Shown: piece by piece, positions 1 to 50,078 of the stretch
Numbering within the stretch: the first letter of the stretch is position 1
How the letters are laid out: the number at the start of each line of letters is the position of its first letter
Assembly: GCF_021028975.2 (NCBI RefSeq)
Contig: NC_059439.1
Location: 23,684,001 to 23,748,000, forward strand
Origin: Sphaerodactylus townsendi
Taxonomy: Eukaryota
Length of the DNA stretch: 64,000 bases
Direction of reading: 5' to 3'
Position numbers and translations under genes: made by a program
Notes under the pieces: generated by a model
What the model was told of the DNA's origin: nothing
Seen by the model: the letters and a program-made list of their open reading frames with translations, nothing else
Database searches by the model: none

Positions 1-203
1 ACAAGTAATATTACTGAATAGTGGATAATATATGAGATCTAATCAGCTTTTTGCTTATTAAAAAGAGCAGAAGAATTTTTCTTTTACTGCCCCAAAAGGA
101 TCATGGGTAAGATTACTCTCCGTGGCTTTTTGCAACAGGATGTGTTATATATTGTGAGTGCTGGGTGTGAACAAAGATTTCCAATGAGAAAATAGATTTC
201 ATT
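1..203 (+). pseudogene. Relic of a duplicated V2R gene 5' region (intergenic DNA fused to the V2R 5' leader)
   Basis: 1-114 matches ~32265-32375. 115-203 (ctctccgtggctttttgcaacaggatgtg...aaaatagatttcatt) matches 33870-33958, which ends just before the V2R ATG at 33967. Confidence 0.8.
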
Positions 204-15212: not shown

Positions 15213-15390
15213 GGTTTCCCTTCTGAGACCAAATAATATTATGGAATAGTGGATAATATATGAGATCTAATCAGCTTTTTGCTTGTTAAAAAGGGCAAAA
15301 TAATTTTCTTTTACTGCCCCAAAAGGATCATGGGTAAGGTTACTGTTAACTTGTTTCTGATGCCTATGGTGCATAACTCCATCCAACTCT

Positions 15391-15661
15391 AGGCTTTTCC
15401 AACAGAGGTTAAGGCTTGTTCCCTATATGACCATGCAAAAGACTTCTAAACCCAGAGATTTCACAAAGTCTGTGCATAGCCAAGACAAAGGAATGATGTT
15501 TTGACACTCCTGCTTGAGATGAGACTAGAGCTTTGCTCATCAGTCAACTAATGGGTGGAAACTTTCTTCACCTATCCTTCTCCACTGTTCTTTGGATATC
15601 ATTTCAAGGCTTCAAGCAGCATGCAGGTACAATAAAACAGATTGGCAAGCAGCATAATACT
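15391..15661 (+). pseudogene. Relic of V2R intron 2 within OR unit 1
   Basis: Matches 34927-35197 and is joined directly to sequence matching 32260-32413, so V2R exons 1-2 are deleted. Confidence 0.8.
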
Positions 15662-20842: not shown

Positions 20843-21740
20843 ATCGTTTTAATTTTAAGAACACTGGGAAAGAAAATCCTGTCTGATTACAGAGACATTT
20901 AACCACAAATGAAGCAAACTGACAATATTGGCCATGATTTATAGATATTTACCTTACTATGAAACATGCATAAACCCAGCCGTAACATTGTGATGTGAAG
21001 TGACAGTTGCATGTAGCTGCAATGAAAATGCTATGTGATCAGTAGATATTCCAAAGGACAGCTGTTTTATGTTCCAAATTCGGCACCTAAAACCTTCAGA
21101 CATAATACATCATTTATGGAATTCTTCAGAATGTTAATGTACGTATCAATTCCTCTACTTAAAGAAAATCTAACAGTCCAAAAATGGGAATGCAGCACCA
21201 GGGCCAGCATATAAGAGAACAACATGATTTGGTCATGCTTTTCCCACAAAGACAATCCTTGACTTTATAAGCACAGCTGGCAATGAAATGCTGGGTGATG
21301 TAATTCTGGGCCTTAGCTCAAAAAAATTAATGGTTAGAATTAATGAGGTAGTTAATACATAACGCATGGCCCAATGGGACAAGTATGAGAACCAACATGG
21401 TGTACTGGTTAAGAGCAGCGGACTCTAATCTGTAGAAGCAGGTTCAATTTCCTACTGACCATTCACAGTTCCCTCAAGACTAAAAAAGGAATCCATAACA
21501 TGCAAATGTTAATGGTTGCTGTGGATATTGCTGTGGATATTGAAGGGGGATATTTGTTAGTAGGTTTCCCTTCTGAGAATAAATAATATTATTGAATACT
21601 GGATAATATATGAGATCTAATCAGCTTTTTGCTTGTTAAAAAGGACAAAATAATTTTCTTTTACTGCTCCAAAAGGATCATAGGTAAGGTTACTGTTAAC
21701 TTGTTTCTGATGCCTATGGTGCATAACTCCATCCAACTCT

Positions 21741-22012
21741 AGGCTTTTCCAAAAGAGGTTATGGCTTGTTCCCTATATGACCATGCAAAAAGACTTCTAA
21801 ACCCAGAGATTTCACAAAGTCTGTGCATAGCCAATACAAAGGAATGATGTTTTGACACTCCTGCCTGAGATGAGACTAGAGCTTTGCTCATCAGTCGGCT
21901 AATGGGTGGACACTTTCTTCATCTATCCTTCTCAACTGCTCTTTGGATATCATTTCCAGGCTTCAAGCAGCATGCAGGTACAATAAAACAGATTGGCAAG
22001 CAACATAATACT
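21741..22012 (+). pseudogene. Relic of V2R intron 2 within OR unit 2
   Basis: Matches 34927-35197 with the same deletion junction as 15391. Confidence 0.8.
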
Positions 22013-28531: not shown

Positions 28532-29243
28532 GCCCAAGCAGTCTTATTCTGAAGATGCTAGAAGACTGGACCACACACACATGGATGGCAAATAGACCCT
28601 ACCTTAGGATTCTGGGAAACAAAAGGAAAAGACACCATTCATTTCATACTGTGTTGATTTTTCAAGCAAGAACTGAGAACAGGGGTTAAAACACTTCAGA
28701 TTTGGGAGGGAGGATCCCTTACAGGGAGGGCAGTTGTTTTATTTGCCTTTCCTTTAATTTACATGAATAGTAGGCATTTTTACCCTGAATATTTCCTTTC
28801 GTAACCCCTCCCTTTTTTAAAATTTCAAAATCATCCCCATTGGAAATATTAAAGGAAAACTATATAATTCTCTTAAGATTAAAAACAAAGATCAAAAGCC
28901 TGGGAATTAAAATCACAGAGATCCTTTCCCATTAATCAAGCTTTTTTTCTGATGGGTACACAAGTGAGGGTATTTTCAGTGGCAGCTTCATGATTGTGGA
29001 ACAATCTCCCCAGAAATGTGTGCTTTCAATCTTTGGAAGGCTGATGCCAGCTTTATTCAGGAAGGCATATTTTTCACCCAATCAGTTGTAAATTGTGATT
29101 TCAATTCAGCGCCTTCTATGGGTTTTATGTATGTTTATGTTCAGCATTCGATTTACATTGTAAAATAGTTCCGTATGGTGGAAAAGTGGAGCATAAGAGC
29201 AACAGATAATGTTGGCCCTCCTTGTAACATTTGATCAAAGTTA

Positions 29244-30183
29244 TTAACCTTTTGTCGTAAGAAAGATTTTAGTACCCAGTTTCCACATTGCTCCTTTTAC
29301 CTCTTTGTTCCTGAGACTATATATTATGGGGTTTAAAATAGGTGTGATGATGGAATAGGACAGAGACAACCACTTGTCAGTGTCCGAAGAGTAACTGGAC
29401 TTAGGCTGGGAATACAAGAAGAGAGCTGGGCCATAAAATAGGGTTACAACCATGAGGTGAGAGGAACAAGTGGAGAAGGTCTTGTACCTGCTCTTGGCTG
29501 ATCTCATTTTTAAGATAGCAGTGATGATATGGAGGTAAGACACCAGGATAAGAACGAAAGGAAGCATGAGCACCAAAACAGCTACCCCAATGACTTGGAC
29601 TTCATTCCAGTAGGTGTTTCCACAAACAAGCACCATCAGTGGCTGAATCTCACAGAAGAAATGGTTAATGATGTTGGGCCCACAAAAAGGGAGGTTAAAA
29701 ATGAAGGTGGTGTGTCCTGCTGCCACCAGGAATCCAGTAAGCCAAGATGCCAGAGACAGCTGGAGACAAGTTCTCTTGTCCATGATAACCATGTATCGCA
29801 GTGGGATGCAGATGGCCACGTAGCGGTCGTATGACATAACACAAAGGATACAACACTCTGTAGCTCCAAATAGTAAGAAGAAATAGAGCTGTGTGGCACA
29901 CCCAACAAAAGAGATTTTGCCTTCTGCCAAGCGGAGGTTTGCAAGCATGTTGGGTATGGTGACTGAGATGAAACATAATTCCAAGAAAGACAAGTTCCTT
30001 AGGAAAAAATACATGGGAGTCTGTAGGGTGCTATCCAAACTGATCGTGACAACAAATGAGGATGTTACCAACTATTGTGAATAAGTACAGGCATAAAAAC
30101 AACACAAACAGTAAAAACTTCATTTCCGGGAGTTTTGAGAAACCCAGTATAATGAATTCAGTCACACAGGTTTCATTTCCCAT
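29244..30183 (-). pseudogene. Olfactory receptor (OR10-like) with a single +1 frameshift after the TM1 GN motif; pseudogene or assembly error
   Basis: ATG at 30183; 940 bp versus 939 bp in paralogs; extra A at 30054-30056 (aacaaatg vs aacaatg); otherwise open. Confidence 0.85.
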
Positions 30184-31371
30184 GGCTTATCCTTTATCCT
30201 ATTTTTCCTGAAATTTATCTATTATGATATAGTAAAATATGATGGATAGAACACTAAACACACTATATATACTTATTGTCAGATACCAATGAGGAACATT
30301 TACATCCAGATGTGGCGTTTAATCCTACCCATGGTTGGAGATGCTCATCATGCCCTTTTATTTTCACAGCAATCCTTGTGAGCTGAGTGTTACTTGCCAC
30401 AGATCACTGAAGGGATCATCCTTTGCAGTCCCAGATTATCACAAGAATTTGCTTGATGTCAAAATCACAGTGGATTTGAACATTCATTCCATGAATTTCA
30501 AGGAAAACTGTAATAGCTGATTTTTCTAGAACAGGATGTACACATGCATGTTCCACACAGTTTTCGATTTCGTCTTACTAGATGCAAAGTGAAACTTGAG
30601 ACTTACTTCTGCAATGAAATATTTGAGATGTTTTGAGAGAAGTCAAGTGAGTTTGTGTCGGATTACATCAATCCTTCTAGGACTGCACATCTTCTAAAAC
30701 ACCACATCCTGATGCCATGTCATAAATGTAAACGACAGTGTTCCAACAGCAAAGGTGCTGGAAAGAAAATCCGATCCATTTTAGTCAATGATACAAGTTT
30801 CACACATTCCAGGAAAAGAGAAAAAAATAACCTCTAAAGCTAGTGACAGAGTTTCATTTTGATGCACGGAGATTTCCTTCTGTACAAGGTTCCTTTGGAT
30901 ACAGTCCAGAGATTATAGGCAATTGGCAGAGCCATATTATGCCGTTCAAGACCCTTCCAATTACAGTGGCTTCAACAAAATTAGAATGGAGTAACTGTTG
31001 TTCAAATGCCACTGTTAGTATCACATCTAGGGAAATAAACTGTGAACTGTATTACCACAATTAAAATCTTCCTATGACTCTTTCAGTATTATGCAGAATG
31101 GATTTCCTTAGTAGCTTTCAAAGATGTGTTCTCAGTACACACAAATATTTGGCCATAAGATGCTGGCAGATACCATTAAATTCCTGGAAATTGGTACTGG
31201 ATTTTTTTTCTCTTTGCTGCTCACTAGCAAGCCTTGTAATGTTTCAGGTCCATGGATGCTGCCTACCATATCATCGGATGTCTCCTTAATTCAGCCTGCT
31301 CAACATCTAGTATCAACTTTGCACTCCTTGCCCAGCGAGGGAATTTGCTGATTAGCAAGCAGAAACACAAT

Positions 31372-31522
31372 GACCCCTTCCGCACATGTAGAATAATGCA
31401 CTTTCATTCCATTTTCAATGCACTTTGCAGCTGATTTTTACTGTGTGGAATAGCAAAATCCACTTGACAACAATTTTGAAAGTGGATTGAAAGTGTGTTA
31501 TTCTGCTTGTGCAGAAGAGGCC
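31372..31522. mobile_element. MITE (shared copy, unit 3)
   Basis: Equivalent position and sequence to 13803-13953. Confidence 0.8.
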
Positions 31523-31984
31523 ATGGTTTTAATTTTAAGAACACTGGGAAAGAAAACCTTGTCAGATTACAGAGACACTTAACCACAAATGAAGCAAACT
31601 GACAATATTGGCCATGATTTATAGATATTTACCTTACTGTGAAACATGCATAAACCCAGCTATAACATTGTGATGTGAAGTGACACCTGCATGTAGCTGC
31701 AATGAAAATGCTAGGTGATCAGTATTTTATGTTCCAAATTCAGCACCCAAGACCTTCAGACATTATATATCATTTATGGAATTCTTCAGAATGTTAATGT
31801 AGGTATCAATTCCTCTTCCTAAAAAAAATATTTCAGTCCAAAAATGGGAATGCAGTACCAGGGCCAGCATATAAGAGAACAACATGATTTGGTCATGCTT
31901 TTCCCACAAAGACAACCCTTGACTTTATCAGCACAGCTGGCAATGAAATGCTGGGTGATGTAATTCTTGGCCTTAGCTCAGAGG

Positions 31985-32040
31985 AATTAATGATTAGAAT
32001 TAATGAGGTAGTGAATGTATAATTCATGGCCCATGGGACA
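31985..32040. promoter_or_regulatory. Candidate Lhx2/EBF-type promoter between the divergent OR and V2R genes
   Basis: TAATGA at 31988 and 32001, TAATTC at 32020, CCCATGGGA (EBF CCCNNGGGA) at 32030. Confidence 0.45.
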
Positions 32041-32666
32041 AGTATGAGAACCAACATGGTGTACTGGTTAAGAGCACAGGACTCTAATCTGTAGAACCAG
32101 GTTTAATTTCCTACTGAGCCAGTCAAAGTTCCCTCAAGACTAAAAAAGGAATCCATAACATGCAAATGTTAACAGAACAATGGTAACAATAATTACTGTG
32201 GATATTGAAATTACGGTTTTCAAAAAAAGGGGGAGATATTTGTTAGTAGGTTTCCTTCTGAGAACAAATAATATTATTGAATAGTGGGTAATATATGAGA
32301 TCTAATCAGCTTTGCTTGTTAGAAAGAGCAGAAGAATTTTCTTTTACTGCCCCAAAAGGATCATGGGTAAGATTGCTGTTAACTTGTTTCTGATGCCTAT
32401 GGTGCATAACTCCCAAGAGATGTCCAATGTAGATGAAAGGAGAAATATGAGGGAAAGTGGCATCAAGTCATATCTGGATATTACTGACCGCTTTGGAATA
32501 GGAAGTATTTTTCAAATAGTAGAAACTTGCTCTTCCACCACACATGCTCTGACATTATTTCAGAAAGATTTTCTCACCCTGTTCTTTGACCTCACTGGAA
32601 AAATGTGAAAGACTGATTCGCATGCTGCTAGATGCCTGCATCTGCCTTGTACAAAAGAGAAATTCG

Positions 32667-33328
32667 TGGTGCGTGGTGCGACCGCACTGGAGTCCTGTGT
32701 TCAGTTCTGGTCGCCACATATCAAAAAGGATATTGAAGAGATAGAAAAAGTGCAGAGAGGGGCAACGAGGATGATTGAGGAACTGGAGCACCTTCCTTAT
32801 GAGGAGAGGCTGCAGCGTTTGGGGCTCTTTAGTTTGGAGAGGAGACGTCTGAGGGGGGATATGATTGAAGTCTATAAAATTATGCCTGGGGTAGAAAATG
32901 TTGACAGAGAAATTTTTCTCTCTTTCTCACAATACTAGAACCAGGGGGCATTCATTGAAAATGCTGGGGGGAAGAATTAGGACTAATAAAAGGAAACATT
33001 TCTTCACGCAATGTGTGATTGGTGTTTGGAATATGCTGCCACGGGCGGTGGTGATAGCCACTAACCGGGATAGCTTTAAAAAGGGCTTGGACAGATTTAT
33101 GGAGGAGAAGTCGATCTATGGCTACCAATCTTGATCCTCCTTGATCTCAGATTGCAAATGCCTTAGCAGACCAGGTGCTCAGGAGCAGCAGCAGCACAAG
33201 GCCATTGTTTTTACATCCTGCATGGGAGCTCCCAAAGGCACCTAGTGGGCCCCTGCGAGTAGCAGAGTGCTGGACTAGATGGACTAGATGGACTCAGCAG
33301 GCTTGTTCTTAAGTTCTTATGTTCTTAT
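32667..33328 (+). mobile_element. CR1 LINE 3' fragment
   Basis: [11 protein letters not shown]...[10 protein letters not shown]...[28 protein letters not shown]; gttcttat-type tail. Confidence 0.92.
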
Positions 33329-33966
33329 TGCCTCTAAAACAAGAAGGTTCGCTACCAAATCTCCTATCGGCAAGTGCCTTGCTCCAGTCTTGCAAACTGA
33401 AGGCCATGGCGTCCTTTATTGGTCCATGCATCTCATGTTGGCTTGAAATGACCGAACCTAAAAGAAAAAAAGAAGTAGTTTCCATTTTTGTGTATTGTAA
33501 AATGTCATAGCATGCTTGTTTACCTACCAAAGAGTATAAAGAGTATAAAGAACTGTTTACCTACCAAAGAGTATAAAGAACACAACAAGTGTTATGCTGC
33601 TATTAAAGCAGAGAAAGTAAAAAAGAAAAGCAAAGCTAGAGGGGAGTGATTATCTCCCCTGTTATTATCGAACAAGGTAATCATTGAGTCTTCTACATGG
33701 ACAAGCCCTGGGGATTTTCAAAAGGAACTTTCAGAATCACCAAACAAGCCATTTGCAGAACTCAACAAAATCTCATTGATAAACTTTGAAGTCTCTTATA
33801 AATGCTGAAACCTGTGCTGAGTCAGATATCGAGAGAAGTTAGAATTGAAGACTGGGAGTGGAATGTGCAACTCTCGATGGCTTTTTACAACAGGATGTGT
33901 TACATATTGTGAATGCTGGGTGTGAACAAAGATTTCCAATGTGAAAATAGATTTCATTGACCAAAG

Positions 33967-36900
33967 ATGCTGCTGCTGCTCTTTCTTCTGTTTCTGCCTC
34001 AAGCTGTCAGCAAGAATTTGAAGGAACTTTGTAGGGCAACCACTCATCGATATAAAGATGATTATTTAAAGTCAGGAAATCATGTTATTGGTGCAATTTC
34101 ATCTCTGCGTGTGGCGGTTGGTCCAGAAGAGAAGTTTAAGTCTTTGCCCCAGAGTTTCAATAAATATATATACCAGTACGTGAGTATGCAGTTTAAATAA
34201 ACTACAGGCAGTCAGATCTTAAGGATCTTTGCCACAGCATGAGTATCTCAGTGTACATGCTAATATTAAGAGTAGTCCAACCTTATCCCACAATGGTCAA
34301 ACCCTCAAGGCAAAGTGCAGTTTCATCTCAGCATATCATTGTCTGATCAGAAGATATGTTCACATCTTTGCCCCCGAGTTTATATACACACATCATGTTA
34401 TTTAGTTGTTTCTTGTGTTTGATCTTTTCTTCTGCTAATTTGGAGTTCTGGAAATAGAGATGGGAGATTGGAAAAGGCTGTCAATACAAAGAGATGAATG
34501 AAACCTTTACTTCCATTTTAGGTTTGTGAGGAAGAATTATCAGCATGTCCTCACCTTCATTTTTACTGTTGATGAAATCAACAAGGATCCAGATCTCTTA
34601 CCCAATGTCACACTGGGCTTCCGCCTCTATGACAGCCTCTTACGAGGAAGATCAGATTATGACATCACTCTGTCCTTGCTGTCCTCACCAAAAGTAAACA
34701 TCCCTAATTTCAACTGTGCAAAGCAATACAATATGTCAGCAGTTGTTGGAGGACTTAGCTCTGAAGCTTCCATCCAGATGGCTACCATCTTTGACCTCTA
34801 CAAGATCCCTCAGGTATGGATGTACAGTGTACAAAGTCCTAACACAAAATAACAGTCGACATTTTTTCATGTTATTCCATGCTAACAGTGATGTAGTAAA
34901 TAAATTCTGACAACTTAGCACCGTCCAGGCTTTTCCAAAAGAGGCTATGGCTTGTTCCCTATATGACCATGCAAACAGACTACTAAGCCCAGAGATTTCT
35001 CAAAGTCTGTGCATAGCCATGACAAAGGTGTGATGTTTTGACACTCCTGCCTGAGATGAGACTAGGGCTTTGCTCATCAGTCAGCTAATAGGTGGAGAAT
35101 TTCTTCATCTGTCCTTTTCAACTGCTCTTTGGATATCATTTGCAGGCTTCAAGCAGCATGCAGGTACAAGAAAACAGATTGGCAAGCAACGTAACACTCT
35201 TGGTACCCATACTGGGAAGGAGTTGGTCTAAGCAATGCCTTGCTTAACTTCTAATCTAGTGGTTTCCTTACATATCTGTTGTTTAATGGTGAAATAAAGG
35301 CTCCACATGATGGTGCAGGAATGGCAGTAACAGAGCTTATAATGTTTGAATGTAGATATGAACGTTCACCACTAGTAGCAAAATTTCTTTTACAAGTGAC
35401 AGAACTTTCTAAGTAACGTCCAGTGCTAGATATAATCCTGTCTGTGTTTTGAATGTATTCTTGATTTGTACTTCACAAATGTCTGGCAATGCTCTGGAGC
35501 CTATTTTATATACCTAATAAAGGTTGTTGTTAATATTTCCAACCTATATTATTGGAAAAATATTTTTGACCGTTGCACTATTATTACAAGAATTATCCAT
35601 GGCCCTGTCCACAGAAAATCCAAAAAAAAAAATATTTTCAATCCCTCATATCATGATTAATGTCTGCACTCACCCTCTCAAAACAAATACTGAACACATT
35701 TTAAAAACCTTTCAGCCTCAAGGATTATTTGAAAAGGGGATTCATTTAAAACATGTTGAGGCTGGAAATAAAACATTTGAGGGTAAAAACAATGCCGAAG
35801 TCCATGAAGGAAACAGAAGATGGGAGCATTCTAATCAAGGACCCTTGAGGATAATCTCAGCAAAACAGAGTTCCACAGCTGCGTGAAACTCACAGTAAAT
35901 ACTGGTTGTGGTTGGTTTTCCAGGCTGTGTGGCTGTGATCTGATGGATCTTGTCCCTAACATTTCACTGGCATCTGTGGCTAACATCTTCAGAGGTGTAT
36001 CACAGAGGGAAGTCTGTTACACACTGTGTCCAGTGAGAAGGAAATGTTTAGTGGGGTATATATTGTCCATGTTCCAGGGTGGGGAACCAATCAGTAAGTA
36101 TTTGGGTGGAACTTGCTATGCACAGATGTGGTTGATGGTACTGTACTGCAGGTGGGGTTTTTCAGTCCAGGGAGTGATTTACATTTGCAGGCTTTCGACA
36201 ATACATTGCAGTAAATACTACTTTTCTGACATAAAGATTGCACAGGTTTAGCAACAATGTTCCTGTAGTTCTTCTAATAATAGCAGCAGTAATTATTTTA
36301 CTATCACTCTTAAGAGTGGTAGTACCAGTAGTAGCAGGAACAGTGGTAAAGTGGTAATAGTATTAGCAAATCATTCCTACCACTCAAAACATTCTGGCCC
36401 CTTCCGCACACGCAAAATAATGAGTTTTCAAACCACTTTCACAACTGTTTGCAAGTGGATTTTGCTATTCCGCACAGCTTTAAAGAGCACGGAAAGCAGT
36501 TTGAAAGTGCATTATTCTGCATGTGCGGAATGAGCCTCTGTAATTTGTTTTTCATTAATGCTTCCAGGATGCCCTGTCTGAAGATCCTGCATGTTTTCAG
36601 CATGTCTGAAGTCAGGAAACTGGAGAGCTATTCTCAATATGCATAATTTCAGGGAGACAATTGTCAGGTTGTAATAAAATGCCTGTTGTTTTTCTACAGC
36701 TCCCTTATGCTCACCCCTCACTGAGTAATAAAATTCAGTTCCCCTTTTTTTACCAAATGGTTCCAAAGGAAGCTGCTCAGTTAGAAGGAATAGTGGAATT
36801 GATCGGATATTTCAAATGGACGTGGATTGGCCTCGTCGTTTCTGACAATGACAATGGAGAACTGTTTGCTCAAACTATTACCCTCTCACTCAGTAGACGG

Positions 36901-39900
36901 GGAATATGTATTGCCTTCACAGAAAAGGTCCCAGTACCCTTGCATGATTCCTATACTGAATATGGTCAAAAAATATTTTTTATGGGAAATATTTTAAGGA
37001 CATTGTTTGCCACAAAAGCCAATGTGATTATTGCATATGGAGACACTTACTCCATGCATAGTTTACAAATACTTGTATACACCAATGAAGAAATAACAAA
37101 GCGACAGATGCAGAGGAGGATTTGGATCACAACAGCCCAGTGGGACTTATCTTCAAGGATTGTTCGAACAGACTGGAATACCAGGTTCTTCCACGGCACC
37201 TTGTCTATAGCAGACCACAGAAATGATGTACCAGGATTTCAGAGCTTCCTCCGGGGGTTTAAGCTTTACCAACACCCAACCTCTTTAATGCGACAGTTCT
37301 GGGATTTTGTATTTTCCTGTAGAAGCTCAAAACCTGAAAGCTCTGTACAAAATGTAAGGAAATGCACAGGAGAGGAAAAGCTGGAGAGTCTTGGAGGGGA
37401 TGTGTTTGAAATGCACATGTCTGGTCAGAGCTACAGCATCTACAATGCAGTCTATGCCTTTGCACATGCTTTAAATGCTTCTTCCACATTCAGATACCAA
37501 ACGATGAGCAAAAACCCAATTCTGGACCATCGCACAAAGCAGCCCTGGGAGGTAATGTTTGACTTTTAATGTCTGACTTTTCCTTCTCAGCAATGTGCCA
37601 GTGAGAAAGATCACAGTGCTGTGAACAAAAATCAAAAATGTACTGAATCTTTGGTATCTCTTTCTCTCTCTGTTATGCATATGTAACCTCAGCTTGTGGG
37701 TTCTGTGGGCAGTACTTGGAAGGAGTTGCAAAGAACCAAATTTAAACAAAACAGTTTACTTTTCTTTACAAATAACATTAAACATCAACATTTAACATTA
37801 CAATTCAAGGTCCTGTTCAGGTTGCATTTCAAGTCCTTCTAGTTACAGTCTACTGATACTGCCAAGTCCAATTCTTCTTTGCAAGTGGGTTGGCTCCTGA
37901 AGACTCCAAGGGCTTGATGAACAGGATGCAACATGAATGAAGGTTTCCAGGAGAACTCTCACCCATTACAACCACAAAAAGAAACCCTTAACAAGGTGTT
38001 AAGGGCTTATAGAAATCAAGGTCCAAGTCTGGTAGCCTTGTCTTCTCCAAAGAGCTCTGCAGCCTTTCTGCTGCTCTGAGTCTCCACCCCCTTACTGGTT
38101 CAACCCATTCTGGGCATGGGGGTTACACATACGCTATTGCCTTTAATAATTCCCCCTAGTGTTTTTAATTTTCATTTTTGTAGATCGTTGCGGCTTTTCA
38201 GAAAATAATATATGAGCTCCATTTATGTAGTTGAGAAGAGCATTTAGTCAAAATAGCAAAATGAAGTTCATGAAGGATGCTCCACGGCAGAGTGGGAATT
38301 CAAAAGTGGGTCTCACAGATTCTAGTTTGGCACAGTATTCACCAGAAAATGCTGGTTCACACTTTCTAATAAACCAATTCAAGAGTCAGAATATTTCAAG
38401 CTCTTGGAATTCTGTGGCATCCAGCGTGGTTTAGTATTTAAGAGCTGATGGCTACTAATCTGGAGAACCAGGTTTTATTCTCCACTACTCCACTTGAGTG
38501 GCTGAGACTTATCTGGTGAACCAGATGCATATCACACTCCTACATACCTGCTGGGTGATACTGGACTAGTCACAATTCTTCGGAACTCTCTCAGCTTCAC
38601 CTACCTCACAAGGTGTCTGCTGCGGGGAGAGGAAGTGAAAGGAGCTTGTAAGTCATCTTGACTCTCCTAACAGGAGAGAAAGGTGGGGTATAAATCCAAA
38701 CTCCTCCTCCTCTGCTCTTGCTCCTCCTCCTTCTCTTCCTCTTCTTCTTCTTGAGGAACGATGCTGGATTCATACTTGAGGAATGATACTGGATTCATAC
38801 TCAGATTCACAGTACATGAATGCACTGGATACTGCATTCATGTTTGTAGCTTCTGAAGTTTTGCCTTCCCATTTAGCTTCATCCATGTCTGCAAAAACTG
38901 CATTTCAACAACAGTGTTGGGGAGGAGGTATATTTCAATGAACAACAGGAATGGCCAATTGGATATGACATCGTAAACTGGGTCAATTTCCCCAATAAGT
39001 CCTTCATCCCTGTAAGAGTTGGAATGGTGAATCCCTGGACTTCAACTAAACAAAGATTTACCATCAAGAGTGATGCTATCATATGGCCTAAAAGATTTAA
39101 CCAGGTGAGCTCCCTATATTTTAACATCTTTGGACTTACTGTTCTTTTTTCACCAACCATTATTATTATAATTCTCATTGCCATTAGTGTCATCATCAAC
39201 AATTTCTTCATCATTGTTACTATTATAGTTGTTGTTGTTGTTGTTGTTAAGGATAAGAGCCCCATGGCATGGAATGGTAAGCTGCAGTACTGCAGTCAAA
39301 GCTCTGTTCATGACCTCTGTTTGATACTGATGGGAATTGGTTTCAGGTAGCCAGCTCAAGGTTGACTCAGCCTTCCAAGTTCAGTGAACTGAGTACCCAG
39401 ATTGCTGGGAGTAAAGCAAAGATGACTGGGCAAACCACCCCATAATCAAAGTCTGCCTAATAAATATTGCAATGGGACATTACCCCATGGGTCAATAGTG
39501 GTATTCCACAAAATGAGCGTCGCTGTCGTTTTTGTCCTGATACAACTGATACACTTTCTCATATGCTGCTTCATTGTTCAAAGTACAACAACATCAGAAC
39601 CGATTTGAGAACTGTGTTACCAACAGGATTTATGCTCCTTTCTGATAAAATAAAAATGGCTAAGCTTCTAAATAGCTCTAGTGTTGAAAACTCTGAAGCT
39701 GTTGCTAGGTTTTTGCTCTGTGTACTGCAAGTTGAGCAATAATGATCTTTTTATTGTATTTGAAATTATTGGCACTGGTTTTATGCCTAATAAAGGTTTT
39801 GGATTTGGATTTGGGTCAATAGTGACTCAGACCTTGCACAGAGGACAATCTTCAGATGGTTTCATTATTTCTCTTGGGAACTGGTTTCCATTTTGAAGCT

Positions 39901-42671
39901 ATTAGGGCCAAGGAGATCCAGCACTACTAAACTGCAAAATAAACCCAAAAGCAAACCACTTCTTGCGTCAGATTGTGCTGTTATACACTGAGCTTATTAT
40001 CTGGCAACACGCAGCTAAGACTCATGAAACTCAGCCCTTGCTTCTCCATTCCTCTACACCAGTGGTGGCGAACCTTTGGCACTCCAGATGTTATGGACTA
40101 CAATTCCCATCAGCCCCTGCCAGCATTGGCAATTGGCCATACTGGCAGGGACTGATGGGAATTGTAGTCCATAACATCTGGAGTGCCAAAGGTTTGCCAC
40201 CACGGCTCTACACAATGTAGAATGTATACCAATGATTCAATTAATGTACATTGTATGTTTTTGTATTATGTGCTGTTACGTTGCTTCTGACTTATGGCAA
40301 CTTTCTAAACTAATGACCATTAAAATGTCCTACCTTTGCCTGGAAATCTCAGGTTAGTCCAATCTCATCAGATAGCAGAATCTAAAAAGACTTGGCCCTC
40401 GCTACAATTTGGATGGTATACAATTAAGGAATATAAGGGTCATGCCTTGGAGGCTTGGAATGGCAAGCCACCTCTGAACATCTCCTGCCTTTAAAACCCT
40501 ACGATGACAGTATATCTGAGCTGTGACATGATGGTCAAAAAAGCCCTATCCGTAGTATGGATGGCCATTACTAGCTTTTTTTCATCTGAGCTTCCAGGGC
40601 AAACAGGTTTGGCCATGGCTAGGACTTGGATGGGAGACCACTACAGAAATCCAGGGTTGCTATCCAGAGGCAGGTAACAGTGAACCACCTGTTTGTATTG
40701 TCTTAAAAACCCTCAGCTTCATTGAAATACTCAAATCCCCTCACCACATTGAGATGAGTATCCAGGAAGGCACAAGAATATCCTAGTCATTACCTTAAAT
40801 GAAACCATATTTCTTTGCATTATGATTAGACCTTGCCTCATTCCCTGTGTACTGAGAGATGCCATCCTGGATACAGCAGAAAAGTTCTCAGGGGAAAAAA
40901 TTCATCTTGCTGCTATGATTGTTCTCAGTGCCCAGAAGGGACAATTTCAAACCAGACAGGTATGTGGTTTCCATGTTTATAATAATAAAAATTTTTGTTG
41001 TCCATCTGTCCAAAAAACCCCATCTGTGACAAGAAATCCAACAAATACAGCACCTTATACAACAAAACACAAACAATGTTAGCAACATCATATATTGAAC
41101 TAGAAAAACAGAAATAGAAGCTGATATTGGCTGTAAGTTAAATAAACTCAACAGGAATACAATGCAGATTTTATGTGCAGCCTATAAAATCTTTTAAAAA
41201 TGGACTCCAATCTGGAGAACTAGTTTTGATTCCCAACTCTTCCCCATGAATGGTGGACTCTAATCTGATGAACCAGGTATGTTTCCCAACATGAAGCCTT
41301 CTGGGTTACTCTGGACTAGTCACAGTTGTCTTTGATCATTCTCATCCTCACCTACTTCATAAGATGTCTGTTGAGGAGACAGAAAGGGAAGGAGGTTGTA
41401 ATCTGCTTTGAGACTCCTTACAGGACAGAAAAACTGGATATAAATCCAAAGTAGTCTTCTTATTGTTCCTTTAAAATACTGGTGGAAAGGTAGGGCAGCT
41501 ATTTCAGAGTAAAGAAACCAAACTGATGTTGAAGGGTCCTCTTTCTACAGAGGATCATAAGGCAAATTGAACAGACTTGACATTTGAATTTTTTGGATGG
41601 ACAGAGAAGCATTGTCTTCATCACATCTATATCTTCTCTCAGGCAGTAAATCTGCTCTCTTTTCCAGTACCACTTTGCCAGCAAACACAGAGTATATATC
41701 AGGGATGTACTGTTGGCAGGATTTACCTGCTTTTTAAGCTGATCTCCCATTCCTTTTCTGTTCAGATGCATATCAATGTATCCTGTGCCCAGATGATGAG
41801 CATCCAAATGAGAACCAAAATGGATGCATCCCTAAAGTTATAACTCATCTTGCCTACAGTGAGCCATTGGGAATCAGTTTGGCTTTTGCTTCTCTCTCCT
41901 TTTCTCTACTCGCCATTGTTGTCCTTGGAACCTTTGTGAAATATAAAAACACACCCATTGTCAGAGCCAACAACCGGGATCTTACCTACCTCCTCCTGAT
42001 TTCCATCTTGCTTTGCTTGCTTTGCATTTTTTTGTTCATGGGACAACCCAACCAGGTGACCTGCCTTCTTCAACAGGCGGCTTTTGGTAGTGCATTTTCT
42101 TTTGTAATGTCTTGTGTCTTGGCCAAAACCATCACCGTGGTTCTGGCATTCATGGCCACAAGCCCAGGAAACACAGCAAGGAAATGGCTGGGGAAATACA
42201 CAATTACATTATCCTGGTTTGCTCTCTTGATTCAAGTTGGCATCTGGTACTCGATCTGGCTCAGTACTTCTCCAAGCACCATTCCCAGACCTTGACAAGT
42301 TCTCGCAATCTGGACAAATCATAGTGGAGTGCAATGAAGGCTCAGTCACCATGTTTTACATTGTCTTGGGTTACATGGGCTTTCAGGCCAGCGTCAGCTT
42401 CTTGGTGGCCTTCCTGGCCAGGAAGCTGCCAGATACTTTCAATGAAGCCAAGTTCATCACCTTCAGCATGTTGGTGTTCTGCAGTGTCTGGATCTCCTTT
42501 GTTCCAACCTACCTGAGCACCAAAGGGAAATACATGGTGGCTGTGGAGATCTTTTCTATCTTGGCTTCCAGTGCTGGATTGTTGGGTTGCATATTTGCCC
42601 CTAAAATGTATATCATTTTGCTCAGGCCAGACATAAACACAAGAGACCAGTTCTTTAGGAAAAAAAGATAA
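33967..42671 (+). CDS. Vomeronasal type-2 receptor (V2R, class C GPCR), six exons: 33967-34175, 34522-34813, 36700-37551, 38877-39104, 40830-40959, 41766-42671; indel cluster at ~42190-42285 (possible pseudogene)
   Basis: Signal peptide [12 protein letters not shown]; [14 protein letters not shown]; FKWTWIGL; [11 protein letters not shown]; YDIVNW; Cys-rich CHPG..CCYDC..CPEG; [14 protein letters not shown]; [24 protein letters not shown] sites give consistent phases 2,0,0,0,1. Confidence 0.93.
35903..36207 (-). mobile_element. Penelope-like retroelement relic with a degenerate minimal hammerhead motif
   Basis: Minus strand 35955-35995 reads cct-CTGAAGA-tgttagccacagatgccagt-GAAA-tgtt-agg; the relic ends gctttcgacaatacatt. 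Confidence 0.6.
36396..36536. mobile_element. 141-bp Harbinger-type MITE in V2R intron 2
   Basis: TIRs; TSD TCT. Confidence 0.88.
37682..38127 (-). mobile_element. Solo LTR (446 bp) in V2R intron 3
   Basis: tgtaacc...ggttaca termini; 4-bp TSD cata (37678-37681 / 38128-38131). Confidence 0.8.
38420..38752 (+). mobile_element. tRNA-derived squamate SINE
   Basis: A/B-box-like head, gctgggtga..ctagtcac core, taaatccaaa followed by a (ctc/ctt)n tail; same family at 41200-41460, 48368-48660(-) and 51765-52052. Confidence 0.75.
39501..39811 (+). mobile_element. RTE-X-like LINE 3' end nested in a Sauria-type SINE relic (~39270-39850)
   Basis: 13-bp TSD tgggtcaatagtg; near-identical to 13015-13333; [13 protein letters not shown] motif. 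Confidence 0.88.
40060..40205. mobile_element. 146-bp palindromic hAT MITE
   Basis: Near-perfect hairpin cagtggtggcgaacc...ggtttgccaccacgg; 8-bp TSD ctctacac. Confidence 0.9.
40352..40715 (+). mobile_element. Two degenerate 5S rRNA-derived SINE relics
   Basis: aggacttggatgggagacc and atctcatcagat..gaatctaa resemble the 5S internal control region, followed by an RTE-like ggcaagccacctctg tail. Confidence 0.6.
41200..41460 (+). mobile_element. tRNA-derived SINE
   Basis: ggactc..atctggagaac head; same body as 38420. Confidence 0.7.
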
Positions 42672-43389: not shown

Positions 43390-43831
43390 AGGGTTAATCC
43401 ATCAATTAAGCAATGGAATCACCAGAAGAAACAATACTTCCTGTGTATAAGAATAAGCAATGGTTCTCATATGATGCCCTTTGCCACCTATGGTTTTTAT
43501 CATATCCAAAAGGGTGTTTTTGGAAATGTGTTGGATCCAAAGTACCCTCCCTCCCTTCCTCTGTAGGCCACAGTATCCCCCTCCAACACTTTGTGGAAAA
43601 TGATGGTAAAGTATCTGTTCACTCAGCCAGTTCAACTTTGTGATAAGCTTACAGCAGAAGTTCCCAGAGGAGATTGCCCAGGAGCATAAACCATGTCAAT
43701 TGTGCCCGGTGAACAGACAGGACTCAGAACCAAGATCACTCCTTTCTACATGAAGGTGACGAAGAAACCATTAGCACTGCTGATGAACCAGTACGAAAGA
43801 GGCTGTGTAAACATTAGAAATTCCAGTGAGT
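43390..43831 (+). promoter_or_regulatory. Conserved upstream block of the plus-strand ORs: candidate promoter plus 5' non-coding exon
   Basis: Repeated at ~49360-49782, ~53900-54358 and ~60870/61330-61760; O/E-like ttcccagag and cccaggag sites; conserved donor ca|gtragt at 43826, 49777, 54353, 61755. Confidence 0.5.
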
Positions 43832-44001
43832 ACAAATCTATTTTATTTGAAACCTTTGTTAGCATTCTGAAGGCGCTTGTGTGTGTAAAGTGCTTTGAAG
43901 TTGAAGATTCATCCTTGAAGGTTGTCCTTCCAAGTAACAACCTTGCTTAGCTTCCAAGATCTGAGAGGACTGGACTGAACCATCAGATTTTAAACAGTCT
44001 T

Positions 44002-48660: not shown

Positions 48661-50078
48661 TGGGGAATAGAGCCTCATTCTCCACATAAGATTCCACCAC
48701 TCGTAATTACTACACCCCACTGGCCCTTGATGAAAGTTATATTTAATGTATTCCCATTTGTGTTTATGCTTGCACTCCTGGCTAGGAAACCCTAATCTAA
48801 TTGGTACTTGTTTGTTTGTTTTCTTGCCCATCCTCCAAGGAGGTCAAAATGATAGCAACCTTGACAGATCACAGAAATACGGGATGATAAAACATCAGGA
48901 TGTTTTAAGAAATGATATTGTGATAACTTGTATATTTCTTAATAATCAGAGATGACCCCAAAGGTTAAATTTCTTGGCTTAGGCTCCAGCCCTTTTGAAG
49001 AAAAATTCAAAGGTTGGTTCTTAAAAGTCATTTGTACCGCTGTGAACTATTGTTGTATATTATTATTCTACTAAGGAGAAGAGCATCTCTTAAAGTCACA
49101 GAAGCCTTATTTGAAGAAGCTGTCAGTTATCCAAATAAGGCATTTCACAACATGAGCATCAAAAATATCCAAAGATTAAATATGTACAACTTGAAGCACA
49201 AGAGGAAATATGATTCCCCTTAGCCTCCCTAATTGATCCTGATCCATGCGGCCCGGTTTTTTTCCCTGGTTAGGTTTACCATTATGTAGGTACTTCTCCA
49301 ATGATTAATGGTATTGATAGAGGAATTAACAGTTTAGTCACATTGATTTGAGATTGTTTATCAATCAACTAAGCAATGAAATCACCAGAAGAGATAATGC
49401 TTTCTGTGTATAAGAAGAAGGAATGCTTTTCTTATGATGGCCCTTGCTAACTGCCGTTTTCATAATTACCAGAAATTTAAAAGATGGGTTGGATCCAAAG
49501 CAACACAAGAGGACCTCCCTCCCTTCCTTTGTAGACAACAGGTCCGCCCCCTGGTGTCCCCCCCCCAAATGATGGTAATGTATCTGTGGTATGCTCACTT
49601 CAGAAGTTCCCAGAGGTGATCACCCAGGAGCATAAACCATGTTAATTGCATTTGGTGAACAGACAGGACTCAGAATCGAGATCACTCCTTCCTGCATGAA
49701 TGTGACTCCGAAACCATTAGTGCTGCGGATGAATCAGTAACAGAAGGGGCTGACTATGTAAACATTAGAGATGCCAGTAAGTTCAGATTTATTTTACTTG
49801 AAAACTTCTGTTGGTATTCTGAAAGAGAAAACTAAGAGAATTTCTAGAAGTTCTTACTAATGCTGAGCCATTTTAGAATTGGATTATTTGGCAAGATTGT
49901 TGCATTTTAACAACAATTCTTGAATGCCATAGTTCCAAGTATGCAAACTGCATTAGATTCAGTTTGAGAGTTTTAACTAACTAGCAAGAAAGATGGTTGG
50001 ACACAGCCCTATGTTTAACTATACAATTATTGTCTCTTTAATTCTTAATTTTGTGTGTATTTGCTATTATTTTCCAGG

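What the first reader, a model, noticed from the sequence alone, without database searches (positions are those of the whole stretch)
30183..33967. V2R embedded in an OR cluster, divergent from an OR across 3.8 kb, with a central HD + O/E motif cluster (possible shared promoter)
Seen: TAATGA twice, TAATTC and CCCATGGGA at 31988-32038, about 1.8 kb from the OR ATG and 1.9 kb from the V2R ATG. A minus-strand donor-like sequence (gtaaggtaaat, ~31627-31637) is conserved in all three units. A second EBF-like site, gccctgggga, lies at ~33705 near the V2R start. Only this unit has the canonical 2-nt EBF spacer; units 1 and 2 have 3 nt (cccagtggga, cccaatggga). Known: Lhx2 homeodomain plus O/E(EBF) sites define OR promoters. 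Inference: this V2R could be driven by OR-type regulation and expressed in the main olfactory epithelium, or the OR could be expressed in the vomeronasal organ.
Basis: partly seen in the sequence, partly recalled or inferred. Interest (0 to 1): 0.7.

Follow-up and report, generated by a model that had tools for sequence, protein, structure and literature searches.

The report
Lizard OR–V2R back-to-back gene pair
In a gecko smell-gene cluster, an odorant-receptor gene and a vomeronasal-receptor gene point away from each other across 3.8 kb; the binding-site cluster between them is likely the odorant receptor's own promoter, and the vomeronasal gene has a separate conserved, likely promoter next to its start, so a shared switch is unlikely.

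Summary
In detail: all motifs lie where stated. The cluster is unusual (two or more TAATGA near an O/E core in 0.25% of shuffles), and the allele is in the contigs of a read set. A shared promoter is not favoured.
- The segment has six copies. Four sit upstream of OR10C1-like genes, three of which lost the V2R start. Two sit upstream of OR-less V2R paralogs and lack the O/E-like site.
- The one V2R paralog with an intact frame lacks the segment.
- The V2R has its own conserved block at 33640-33830 with a TATA box.
- The cluster looks central only because a young repeat inserted into this copy.
- Head-to-head V2R/OR pairs recur on this contig (3 of 6 other V2Rs examined); the scan noted one in another lizard genome.
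- Both genes are frameshifted in the assembly, possibly by error.
Against this reading: V2R-only copies keep TAATTA words, and no RNA was available. What remains of interest: this V2R lineage is lizard-wide and seems to have stayed inside this OR cluster (accession adjacency in 7 of 9 species).

The parts
29247..30183 (-). OR3 coding exon (OR10C1-like); 1-nt insertion in a T run near 30053 breaks the frame as assembled
   Evidence: best named relatives of its paralog OR2 are gecko OR10C1-like proteins at 84-85%
30184..30207 (-). Predicted 5' UTR part of the coding exon, behind a TTTCAG|G acceptor 24 nt before the ATG
   Evidence: sequence, kept in OR0-OR3; splicing inferred
31366..31541 (.). 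MITE-like inverted-repeat element in the predicted OR intron
   Evidence: dispersed copies in the window; only sub-threshold hairpin matches in Rfam
31627..31637 (-). Donor-like GTAAGGTAAAT, predicted end of the OR non-coding exon
   Evidence: in 4 of 4 OR-attached copies, outside the homology of both V2R-only copies
31728..32050 (.). Six-copy segment; 31728 is the edge of homology with the V2R tandem copies A and C
31923..31939 (-). TATA-like word (TATAAAG in U0, U2, VA, VC; GATAAAG in U1 and this copy) next to an E-box CAGCTG (6 of 6); points toward the OR
31988..32038 (.). HD + O/E-like cluster (TAATGA x2, TAATTC, GCCCATGGGA); likely OR3 proximal promoter
32055..32150 (+). Short high-copy repeat (SINE-like) starting 17 nt after the O/E site
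   Evidence: contig depth 6,000-90,000 vs a few hundred beside it, many loose ends at 32055-32057; class recalled
32664..33325 (+). Young high-copy repeat (CR1-like by recall), absent at this place in V2R paralogs A, C, D
   Evidence: 8059 candidates, best copies 93-94%; paralog alignments jump from 32663 to 33326; no Pfam match
33640..33830 (+). Conserved V2R proximal block, likely V2R core promoter: GCCCTGGGGA at 33705, TATAAA at 33797 (170 nt before the ATG)
   Evidence: 92.5% vs 85.9% baseline; TATA in all paralogs; found only at this V2R clade
33967..42671 (+). V2R-E, six exons (33967-34175, 34522-34813, 36700-37551, 38877-39104, 40830-40959, 41766-42671), AG/GT ends; frame open for 746 codons, four indels at about 42196-42280 in exon 6

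Best explanation
The motif cluster at 31988-32038 is likely the proximal promoter of the OR10C1-like gene on the minus strand, and the V2R is likely transcribed from its own conserved block at 33640-33830, so the two genes would be regulated separately. Shown: gene layout, motif states in six copies, paralog conservation, repeat insertions, recurrence of head-to-head pairs. [quoted passage not shown] History (inferred): an old head-to-head OR/V2R pair was copied two ways. V2R tandem copies took a cut-off piece of the OR promoter. OR tandem copies took the V2R 5' end and then lost it.
For: (1) The O/E-like site is 1, 1, 1 and 2 mismatches from YCCCNNGGGR in the four OR-attached copies, and 3 at best in both V2R-only copies. 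7 of the 16 fixed differences between the two groups fall in the 54-nt cluster (P 0.010). (2) OR1 and OR2 are intact, keep cluster and donor, and lack 32413-34924, which holds V2R exons 1-2; OR0 lacks 32377-33870 and the V2R ATG. (3) V2R-D (862 codons, open) and V2R-B lack the segment. (4) The V2R proximal block is 92.5% identical to paralogs A, C, D (530 of 573) vs 85.9% for introns and flank; 7 of the 12 least-diverged of 152 non-exonic A-vs-C windows lie there. (5) The ancestral TATA-like word and the donor face the OR. (6) 3 of 6 other V2Rs examined on C15 are head-to-head with an OR at 2.2-4.0 kb; in 2 of these 3 the HD + relaxed O/E pair lies 0.7-0.9 kb from the OR ATG. (7) In corn snake, five V2R probes labelled the VNO and not the MOE, and one OR probe the reverse (PMC3590772, passages).
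Against: No start site or expression data. This copy and U1 have lost the minus-strand TATA. The V2R-only copies keep TAATTA (2 in VA, 1 in VC), the E-box and the TATA-like word; VA and VC differ by only 2 substitutions and one 7-nt gap over 31972-32044 against 85% overall. The loss of O/E cannot be polarised without an outgroup. The four OR-attached copies are 92-96% alike with no conservation peak at the cluster. The older paralog OR-x shows no homology to this upstream region. The Fisher test treats related paralogs as independent, so its P is inflated.
Confidence: 0.62

Rival explanations
1. The cluster is a shared element (bidirectional promoter or short-range enhancer) that also drives this V2R lineage, possibly in the main olfactory epithelium.
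For: The co-occurrence is rare. Only the copy that still has the V2R has the canonical core and two TAATGA. V2R-only copies keep HD words, and 31908-31997 is 91-94% identical to them. The lineage appears to have stayed beside the same ORs across lizards. Mouse V2R transcripts occur in the MOE (PMC3927265, passages).
Against: V2R-B and intact V2R-D lack the segment. The V2R has its own TATA block. A SINE-like and a 0.66-kb repeat lie between cluster and V2R. TAATTC is absent from all contigs of organisms B and D at that place. The unit-3 changes are not a significant burst (5 vs 2.0 expected, P 0.052; best-window permutation P 0.97). A similarly low A-vs-C divergence patch lies over the SINE-like repeat, so conversion or chance can give it.
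Confidence: 0.13
2. The cluster is a chance set of words in AT-rich DNA, and the OR promoter lies elsewhere.
For: HD words are not enriched in the interval. Two TAATGA come from a near-tandem repeat. TAATTC and the canonical core are private, recent changes. No conservation peak among OR copies. The OR4-7 upstream regions show no HD + O/E pair under the same scan.
Against: A relaxed HD + O/E pair, the E-box and the donor persist in the intact OR1 and OR2 units. The layout O/E, HD, TATA, exon, donor is in the expected order. 1 of 36 cores in 264 kb has TAATGA nearby.
Confidence: 0.18
3. Both genes of this unit are true pseudogenes and the promoter is decaying, so the question of expression is moot for this copy.
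For: OR3 has a 1-nt insertion, V2R-E has four indels in exon 6, and this copy has lost the TATA word.
Against: The indels look like unpolished long-read error. They cluster in near-identical exon 6 copies of A, C and E. V2R-B is riddled with indels while contig C394, colinear with B at 90%, has an open exon 3. V2R-E exons 1-5 are open with AG/GT ends. Neither break was tested with reads.
Confidence: 0.07

Closest known systems
Mammalian class II OR proximal promoter (O/E + homeodomain sites, TATA in a subset; PMC3247239, PMC12547500, passages)
   Same: HD words beside an O/E-like site, AT-rich, TATA-like word, predicted non-coding exon and intron before a single coding exon
   Different: Gecko; no mapped start; canonical O/E core in 1 of 4 OR copies; TATA lost in this copy; a V2R lies 1.9 kb behind it
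Rodent vomeronasal Fpr promoter capture (Fpr-rs3 from a V1R, Fpr-rs1 from a V2R; PMC7873101, passages)
   Same: Receptor families mixed in one cluster; duplication moves promoter pieces between families (V2R copies A and C carry a piece of the likely OR promoter)
   Different: No coding exon sits downstream of a foreign promoter in sense orientation; the V2R keeps its own exon 1 and proximal block
Squamate non-C V2R expansion (PMC3590772; 'V2R26-like' models)
   Same: Six-exon family-C GPCR with ANF_receptor and 7tm_3 domains; groups with lizard V2R26-like proteins
   Different: A distinct low-copy lineage: exon 3 is 83-86% identical within it and at most 42% to the other 132 scored matches in the genome; it lies inside an OR cluster
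OR enhancers / Greek Islands (PMC12547500, passages)
   Same: HD and O/E words in an OR cluster
   Different: No side-by-side composite (nearest TAATGA is 28 nt from the O/E site; TAATTC is 9 nt away but private to this copy); duplicated with single genes, not a cluster-level element

Membership tests
OR-type proximal promoter | O/E site and homeodomain sites close together | tested here: met
OR-type proximal promoter | Sites retained in paralogous or orthologous promoters | tested here: inconclusive
   relaxed site and one TAATGA in 4 of 4 OR copies; canonical core in 1 of 4; no homology upstream of OR-x
OR-type proximal promoter | Lies within about 200 nt upstream of the OR start site; active in olfactory neurons | not testable with these tools
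   no RNA holder listed
Bidirectional / shared OR-V2R promoter | Element kept by every functional copy of both genes | tested here: not met
   absent from V2R-B and intact V2R-D; O/E lost in A and C
Bidirectional / shared OR-V2R promoter | Second gene has no separate promoter | tested here: not met
   conserved TATA-bearing block at 33640-33830; its function is inferred
Bidirectional / shared OR-V2R promoter | Divergent start sites within about 1 kb (recalled definition); co-expression | not testable with these tools
   no RNA
V2R (squamate non-C type) | Six-exon structure, ANF_receptor, NCD3G and 7tm_3 domains | tested here: met
   exon map; Pfam PF01094 and PF00003; PF07562 seen only on relatives
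V2R (squamate non-C type) | Groups with squamate V2Rs | tested here: met
   16-row clade of 59, SH-aLRT 100, with gecko, cordylid, skink, anole, lacertid and amphisbaenian proteins; no family-C or CaSR outgroup in the tree
V2R (squamate non-C type) | Intact reading frame | tested here: inconclusive
   exon 6 indels as assembled; may be error
Olfactory receptor (class II, OR10C1-like) | Single-exon 7tm_4 GPCR with intact frame | tested here: inconclusive
   7tm_4 met; 1-nt insertion as assembled
OR enhancer (Greek Island type) | Composite HD-O/E motif and deep conservation | tested here: not met
   no side-by-side composite shared by the copies; six local copies only; other species' genomes could not be searched

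The most novel reading that the evidence does not exclude
A lizard-wide V2R lineage has stayed between OR6M1-like and OR10C1-like genes since geckos split from other lizards because it uses OR-type regulation. An HD-rich element shared with the neighbouring OR (with O/E in the OR-attached copies, HD-only in the V2R copies) would drive these V2Rs in the main olfactory epithelium, or switch organ as the O/E site is gained or lost. That would give a natural test of what sets organ choice for chemoreceptor genes.
Probability: 0.1. Interest if true: 0.72.

Novelty: new member of a known kind. Interest (0 to 1): 0.3.

Why it matters
As read here it is ordinary: an OR promoter and a V2R promoter back to back in a mixed cluster. 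Its value is as test material. Six natural variants of one element are attached to ORs, to V2Rs or to both. Gene-by-gene OR/V2R interleaving on this contig, with apparently old synteny, means organ choice must be set locally by promoters rather than by cluster. If the V2R lineage were expressed in the main olfactory epithelium, it would be a clear case of cross-family regulation in an amniote.

Tried and rejected
- RNA: no RNA holder was listed for 29200-37600; this is no evidence on expression.
- Idea that the canonical O/E core is an assembly error: rejected.
- Idea of accelerated motif gain in unit 3: not significant.
- Homology of the OR3 upstream region to OR-x or other ORs in 264 kb: none by blastn word 7 or nhmmer.
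- AP-2 reading of 33705: GCCNNNGGG is kept in E, A, C, D and C394 (5 of 5 readable copies) while the EBF core is kept in 4 of 5. But it is one mismatch from GCCN3-5GGC (PMC9877354, listing only), the pattern occurs 0.31 times per 600 nt, and 0 of 6 other V2Rs have it in 600 nt upstream. It is a lead only.
- Rfam: six sub-threshold hairpin hits on the MITE-like element, none real.
- Pfam on the repeat's frame: no family.
- Earlier scan notes near this place: none.
- The OR3 and V2R exon 6 frameshifts were not tested with reads.
Full report
Setting. The window is G000:C15:23684001-23748000. It is a lizard, most likely a gecko: the closest named relatives of V2R exon 3 are Paroedura and Eublepharis proteins at 65-67%, and those of the OR are gecko OR10C1-like proteins at 84-85%. 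I added 100 kb on each side. Coordinates below are window coordinates, negative to the left.

Observation. All motifs are present as described. In 1000 dinucleotide shuffles of the 3783-nt interval, TAATGA (2 vs 3.7) and broad HD words (12 vs 13.4) are not enriched; CCCNNGGG is marginal (2 vs 0.33, P 0.044). Two or more TAATGA within 50 nt of a core occurred in 0.25% of 2000 shuffles, and 1 of 36 cores in 264 kb has any TAATGA that close. The test is post hoc and the two TAATGA lie in a 13-nt near-tandem repeat. Contigs of run X1 match 31947-32062 without a difference, and X3 has about 30x depth with the unit-3 letters, so the allele is real. Organisms B and D show C at 32018 and 32023 in all contigs, so TAATTC is absent there (4 of the 9 listed runs were laid, and paralogs cross-map).

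The genes. V2R-E has six exons with AG/GT ends and an open frame of 746 codons, broken by four indels in exon 6. OR3 has a 1-nt insertion; OR1 and OR2 are intact; OR0 is broken in several places. Four close V2R paralogs (A-D) lie on the minus strand at -74 to -24 kb, and D is open for 862 codons. The indels resemble long-read error: B is full of them while contig C394, colinear with B, has an open exon 3. This is inference; neither break was tested with reads.

Where the element travels. The genome search found six copies of 31550-32060, all at this locus. Four are attached to OR10C1-like genes (U0-U3). U1 and U2 lack 32413-34924, which contains V2R exons 1-2; U0 lacks 32377-33870 and the V2R ATG. 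Two copies, from 31728 on, lie upstream of V2R-A and V2R-C with no OR beside them and without the donor. V2R-B and V2R-D lack the segment (homology ends at 33463 and 32143). The O/E-like site is 1, 1, 1 and 2 mismatches from consensus in U3, U1, U2, U0 and 3 at best in VA and VC. Seven of 16 fixed differences between the groups fall in the 54-nt cluster (P 0.010). A minus-strand TATAAAG at 31923-31929 is in 4 of 6 copies, though not in this one, and an E-box is in 6 of 6. Read toward the OR the order is O/E, HD, E-box, TATA, about 250 nt, donor. That is the layout expected of an OR promoter with a non-coding first exon (PMC3247239 and PMC12547500, passages). Against a clean split: VA and VC keep TAATTA words and are very alike across 31972-32044; the OR copies show no conservation peak; OR-x, the 75% paralog, shares no upstream homology.

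The V2R's own block. 33640-33830 is 92.5% identical to paralogs A, C, D (530 of 573 positions) against 85.9% over 4727 intron and flank positions (paralogs are not independent). It holds 7 of the 12 least-diverged of 152 non-exonic A-vs-C windows. TATAAA at 33797 is kept in all five paralogs and in C394. The 33705 site keeps the EBF core in 4 of 5 readable copies and GCCNNNGGG in 5 of 5. AP-2epsilon marks V2R neurons in mouse, and its peaks are enriched for Ebf and Lhx motifs (PMC9525060, passages); the AP-2 reading here is only a lead. Between cluster and V2R lie a SINE-like repeat and a 0.66-kb young repeat absent from paralogs A, C, D. Without the latter the cluster would be 1.3 kb from the V2R ATG, so its central position is incidental.

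How common. At least 137 V2R exon-3 matches were scored in the genome, and OR matches interleave with them on C15 at 22.0-23.8 Mb. I fetched 6 of the 8 other V2R hits at 22.0-23.5 Mb. Three are head-to-head with an OR at about 2.2, 3.7 and 4.0 kb. V2R-D and OR-x are also divergent, at 8 kb. In two of the three pairs a relaxed HD + O/E pair lies 0.7-0.9 kb from the OR ATG; none has a perfect core with HD nearby. An earlier scan note reports a head-to-head pair in another lizard genome (e1-10286672; not checked by me).

Age. The V2R falls in a 16-row clade (SH-aLRT 100; 59 rows, made of E, D and 57 of the 120 listed hits; quick tree, midpoint root) with gecko, cordylid, skink, anole, lacertid and amphisbaenian proteins. 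RefSeq accession numbers, a proxy for position and not a map, put clade members within 8 numbers of OR6M1-like or OR10C1-like proteins in 7 of 9 species where both were looked up: Podarcis muralis, P. raffonei, Zootoca, Lacerta, Rhineura, Hemicordylus, Tiliqua. They do not in Eublepharis or Paroedura, where the proteins share a contig only. A 1239-aa Lacerta model fuses the V2R to an OR6M1-like gene, the same order and strand as V2R-A and the OR at -84 kb here. Head-to-head orientation in other species is unknown. The gecko split at about 190 million years is recalled.

Literature seen. [quoted passage not shown] PMC12400810: passages and parts 3-4 of 8. PMC3590772, PMC3247239, PMC7873101, PMC3927265, PMC12547500, PMC9525060: passages only. 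PMC9877354: search listing only. No supplements or figures were seen; the rattlesnake paper's Fig. 1 and gene tables may already show OR/V2R interleaving. Searches for interspersed OR and V2R genes in lizards and for gecko VNO transcriptomes gave no paper. A search for head-to-head or bidirectional OR/VR promoters gave four papers, unrelated by title and abstract start. The library lacks most subscription papers.

Verdict. Real motifs, likely an ordinary OR promoter back to back with a V2R that has its own promoter (0.62). Shared regulation is not excluded (0.13). Novelty: new member of a known kind. Interest 0.3, mainly for the conserved V2R-in-OR lineage and the six natural element variants.

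Noticed in passing
G000:C15 22.0-23.8 Mb (L027-L042, L045-L046): V2Rs and ORs alternate almost gene by gene, with at least five divergent V2R/OR pairs; no paper describing this turned up.
   Followed up: partly
window -74000 to -24000 (L009-L014) and 33967-42671: Five-copy V2R lineage, at most 42% identical in exon 3 to all other scored V2Rs of the genome; low-copy relatives across lizards with apparent synteny to OR6M1-like and OR10C1-like genes; none of the five snake proteins in the tree falls in the clade.
   Followed up: partly
window 33705-33714: The V2R proximal site varies between paralogs only in the three middle letters of GCCNNNGGG, which fits an AP-2-like reading slightly better than EBF.
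   Followed up: partly
window 115-203, 15388-15661, 21738-22012: OR units 0-2 carry leftovers of the V2R 5' flank or intron 2, showing that the OR duplications once included the V2R start.
   Followed up: yes
L011-L012 (V2R-B) and G000:C394: V2R-B is full of small indels while unplaced contig C394 is a cleaner colinear version; pseudogene calls in this region of the assembly are unreliable.
   Followed up: partly
window 43390-43880 and homologs at 49356, 61330, 66191, 73225, 81280, 89071: A block of about 480 nt is kept upstream of the plus-strand OR4-family genes, with a conserved TTCCCAGAGG O/E-like word and a donor-like CAGTAAGT; a likely promoter and non-coding exon.
   Followed up: no
window 94729-96689 (L020, L021): Isolated V2R exon 6 fragments on the minus strand among ORs; an exon 5 remnant also lies at -21561 to -21408.
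   Followed up: no
P0241 (Lacerta agilis model): A 1239-aa RefSeq model fuses a V2R and an OR; probably a gene-prediction join of neighbours, but useful as synteny evidence.
   Followed up: partly
window 40042-40222: A 180-nt palindromic element in V2R intron 4, with copies at -3471 and 154810; MITE-like.
   Followed up: no
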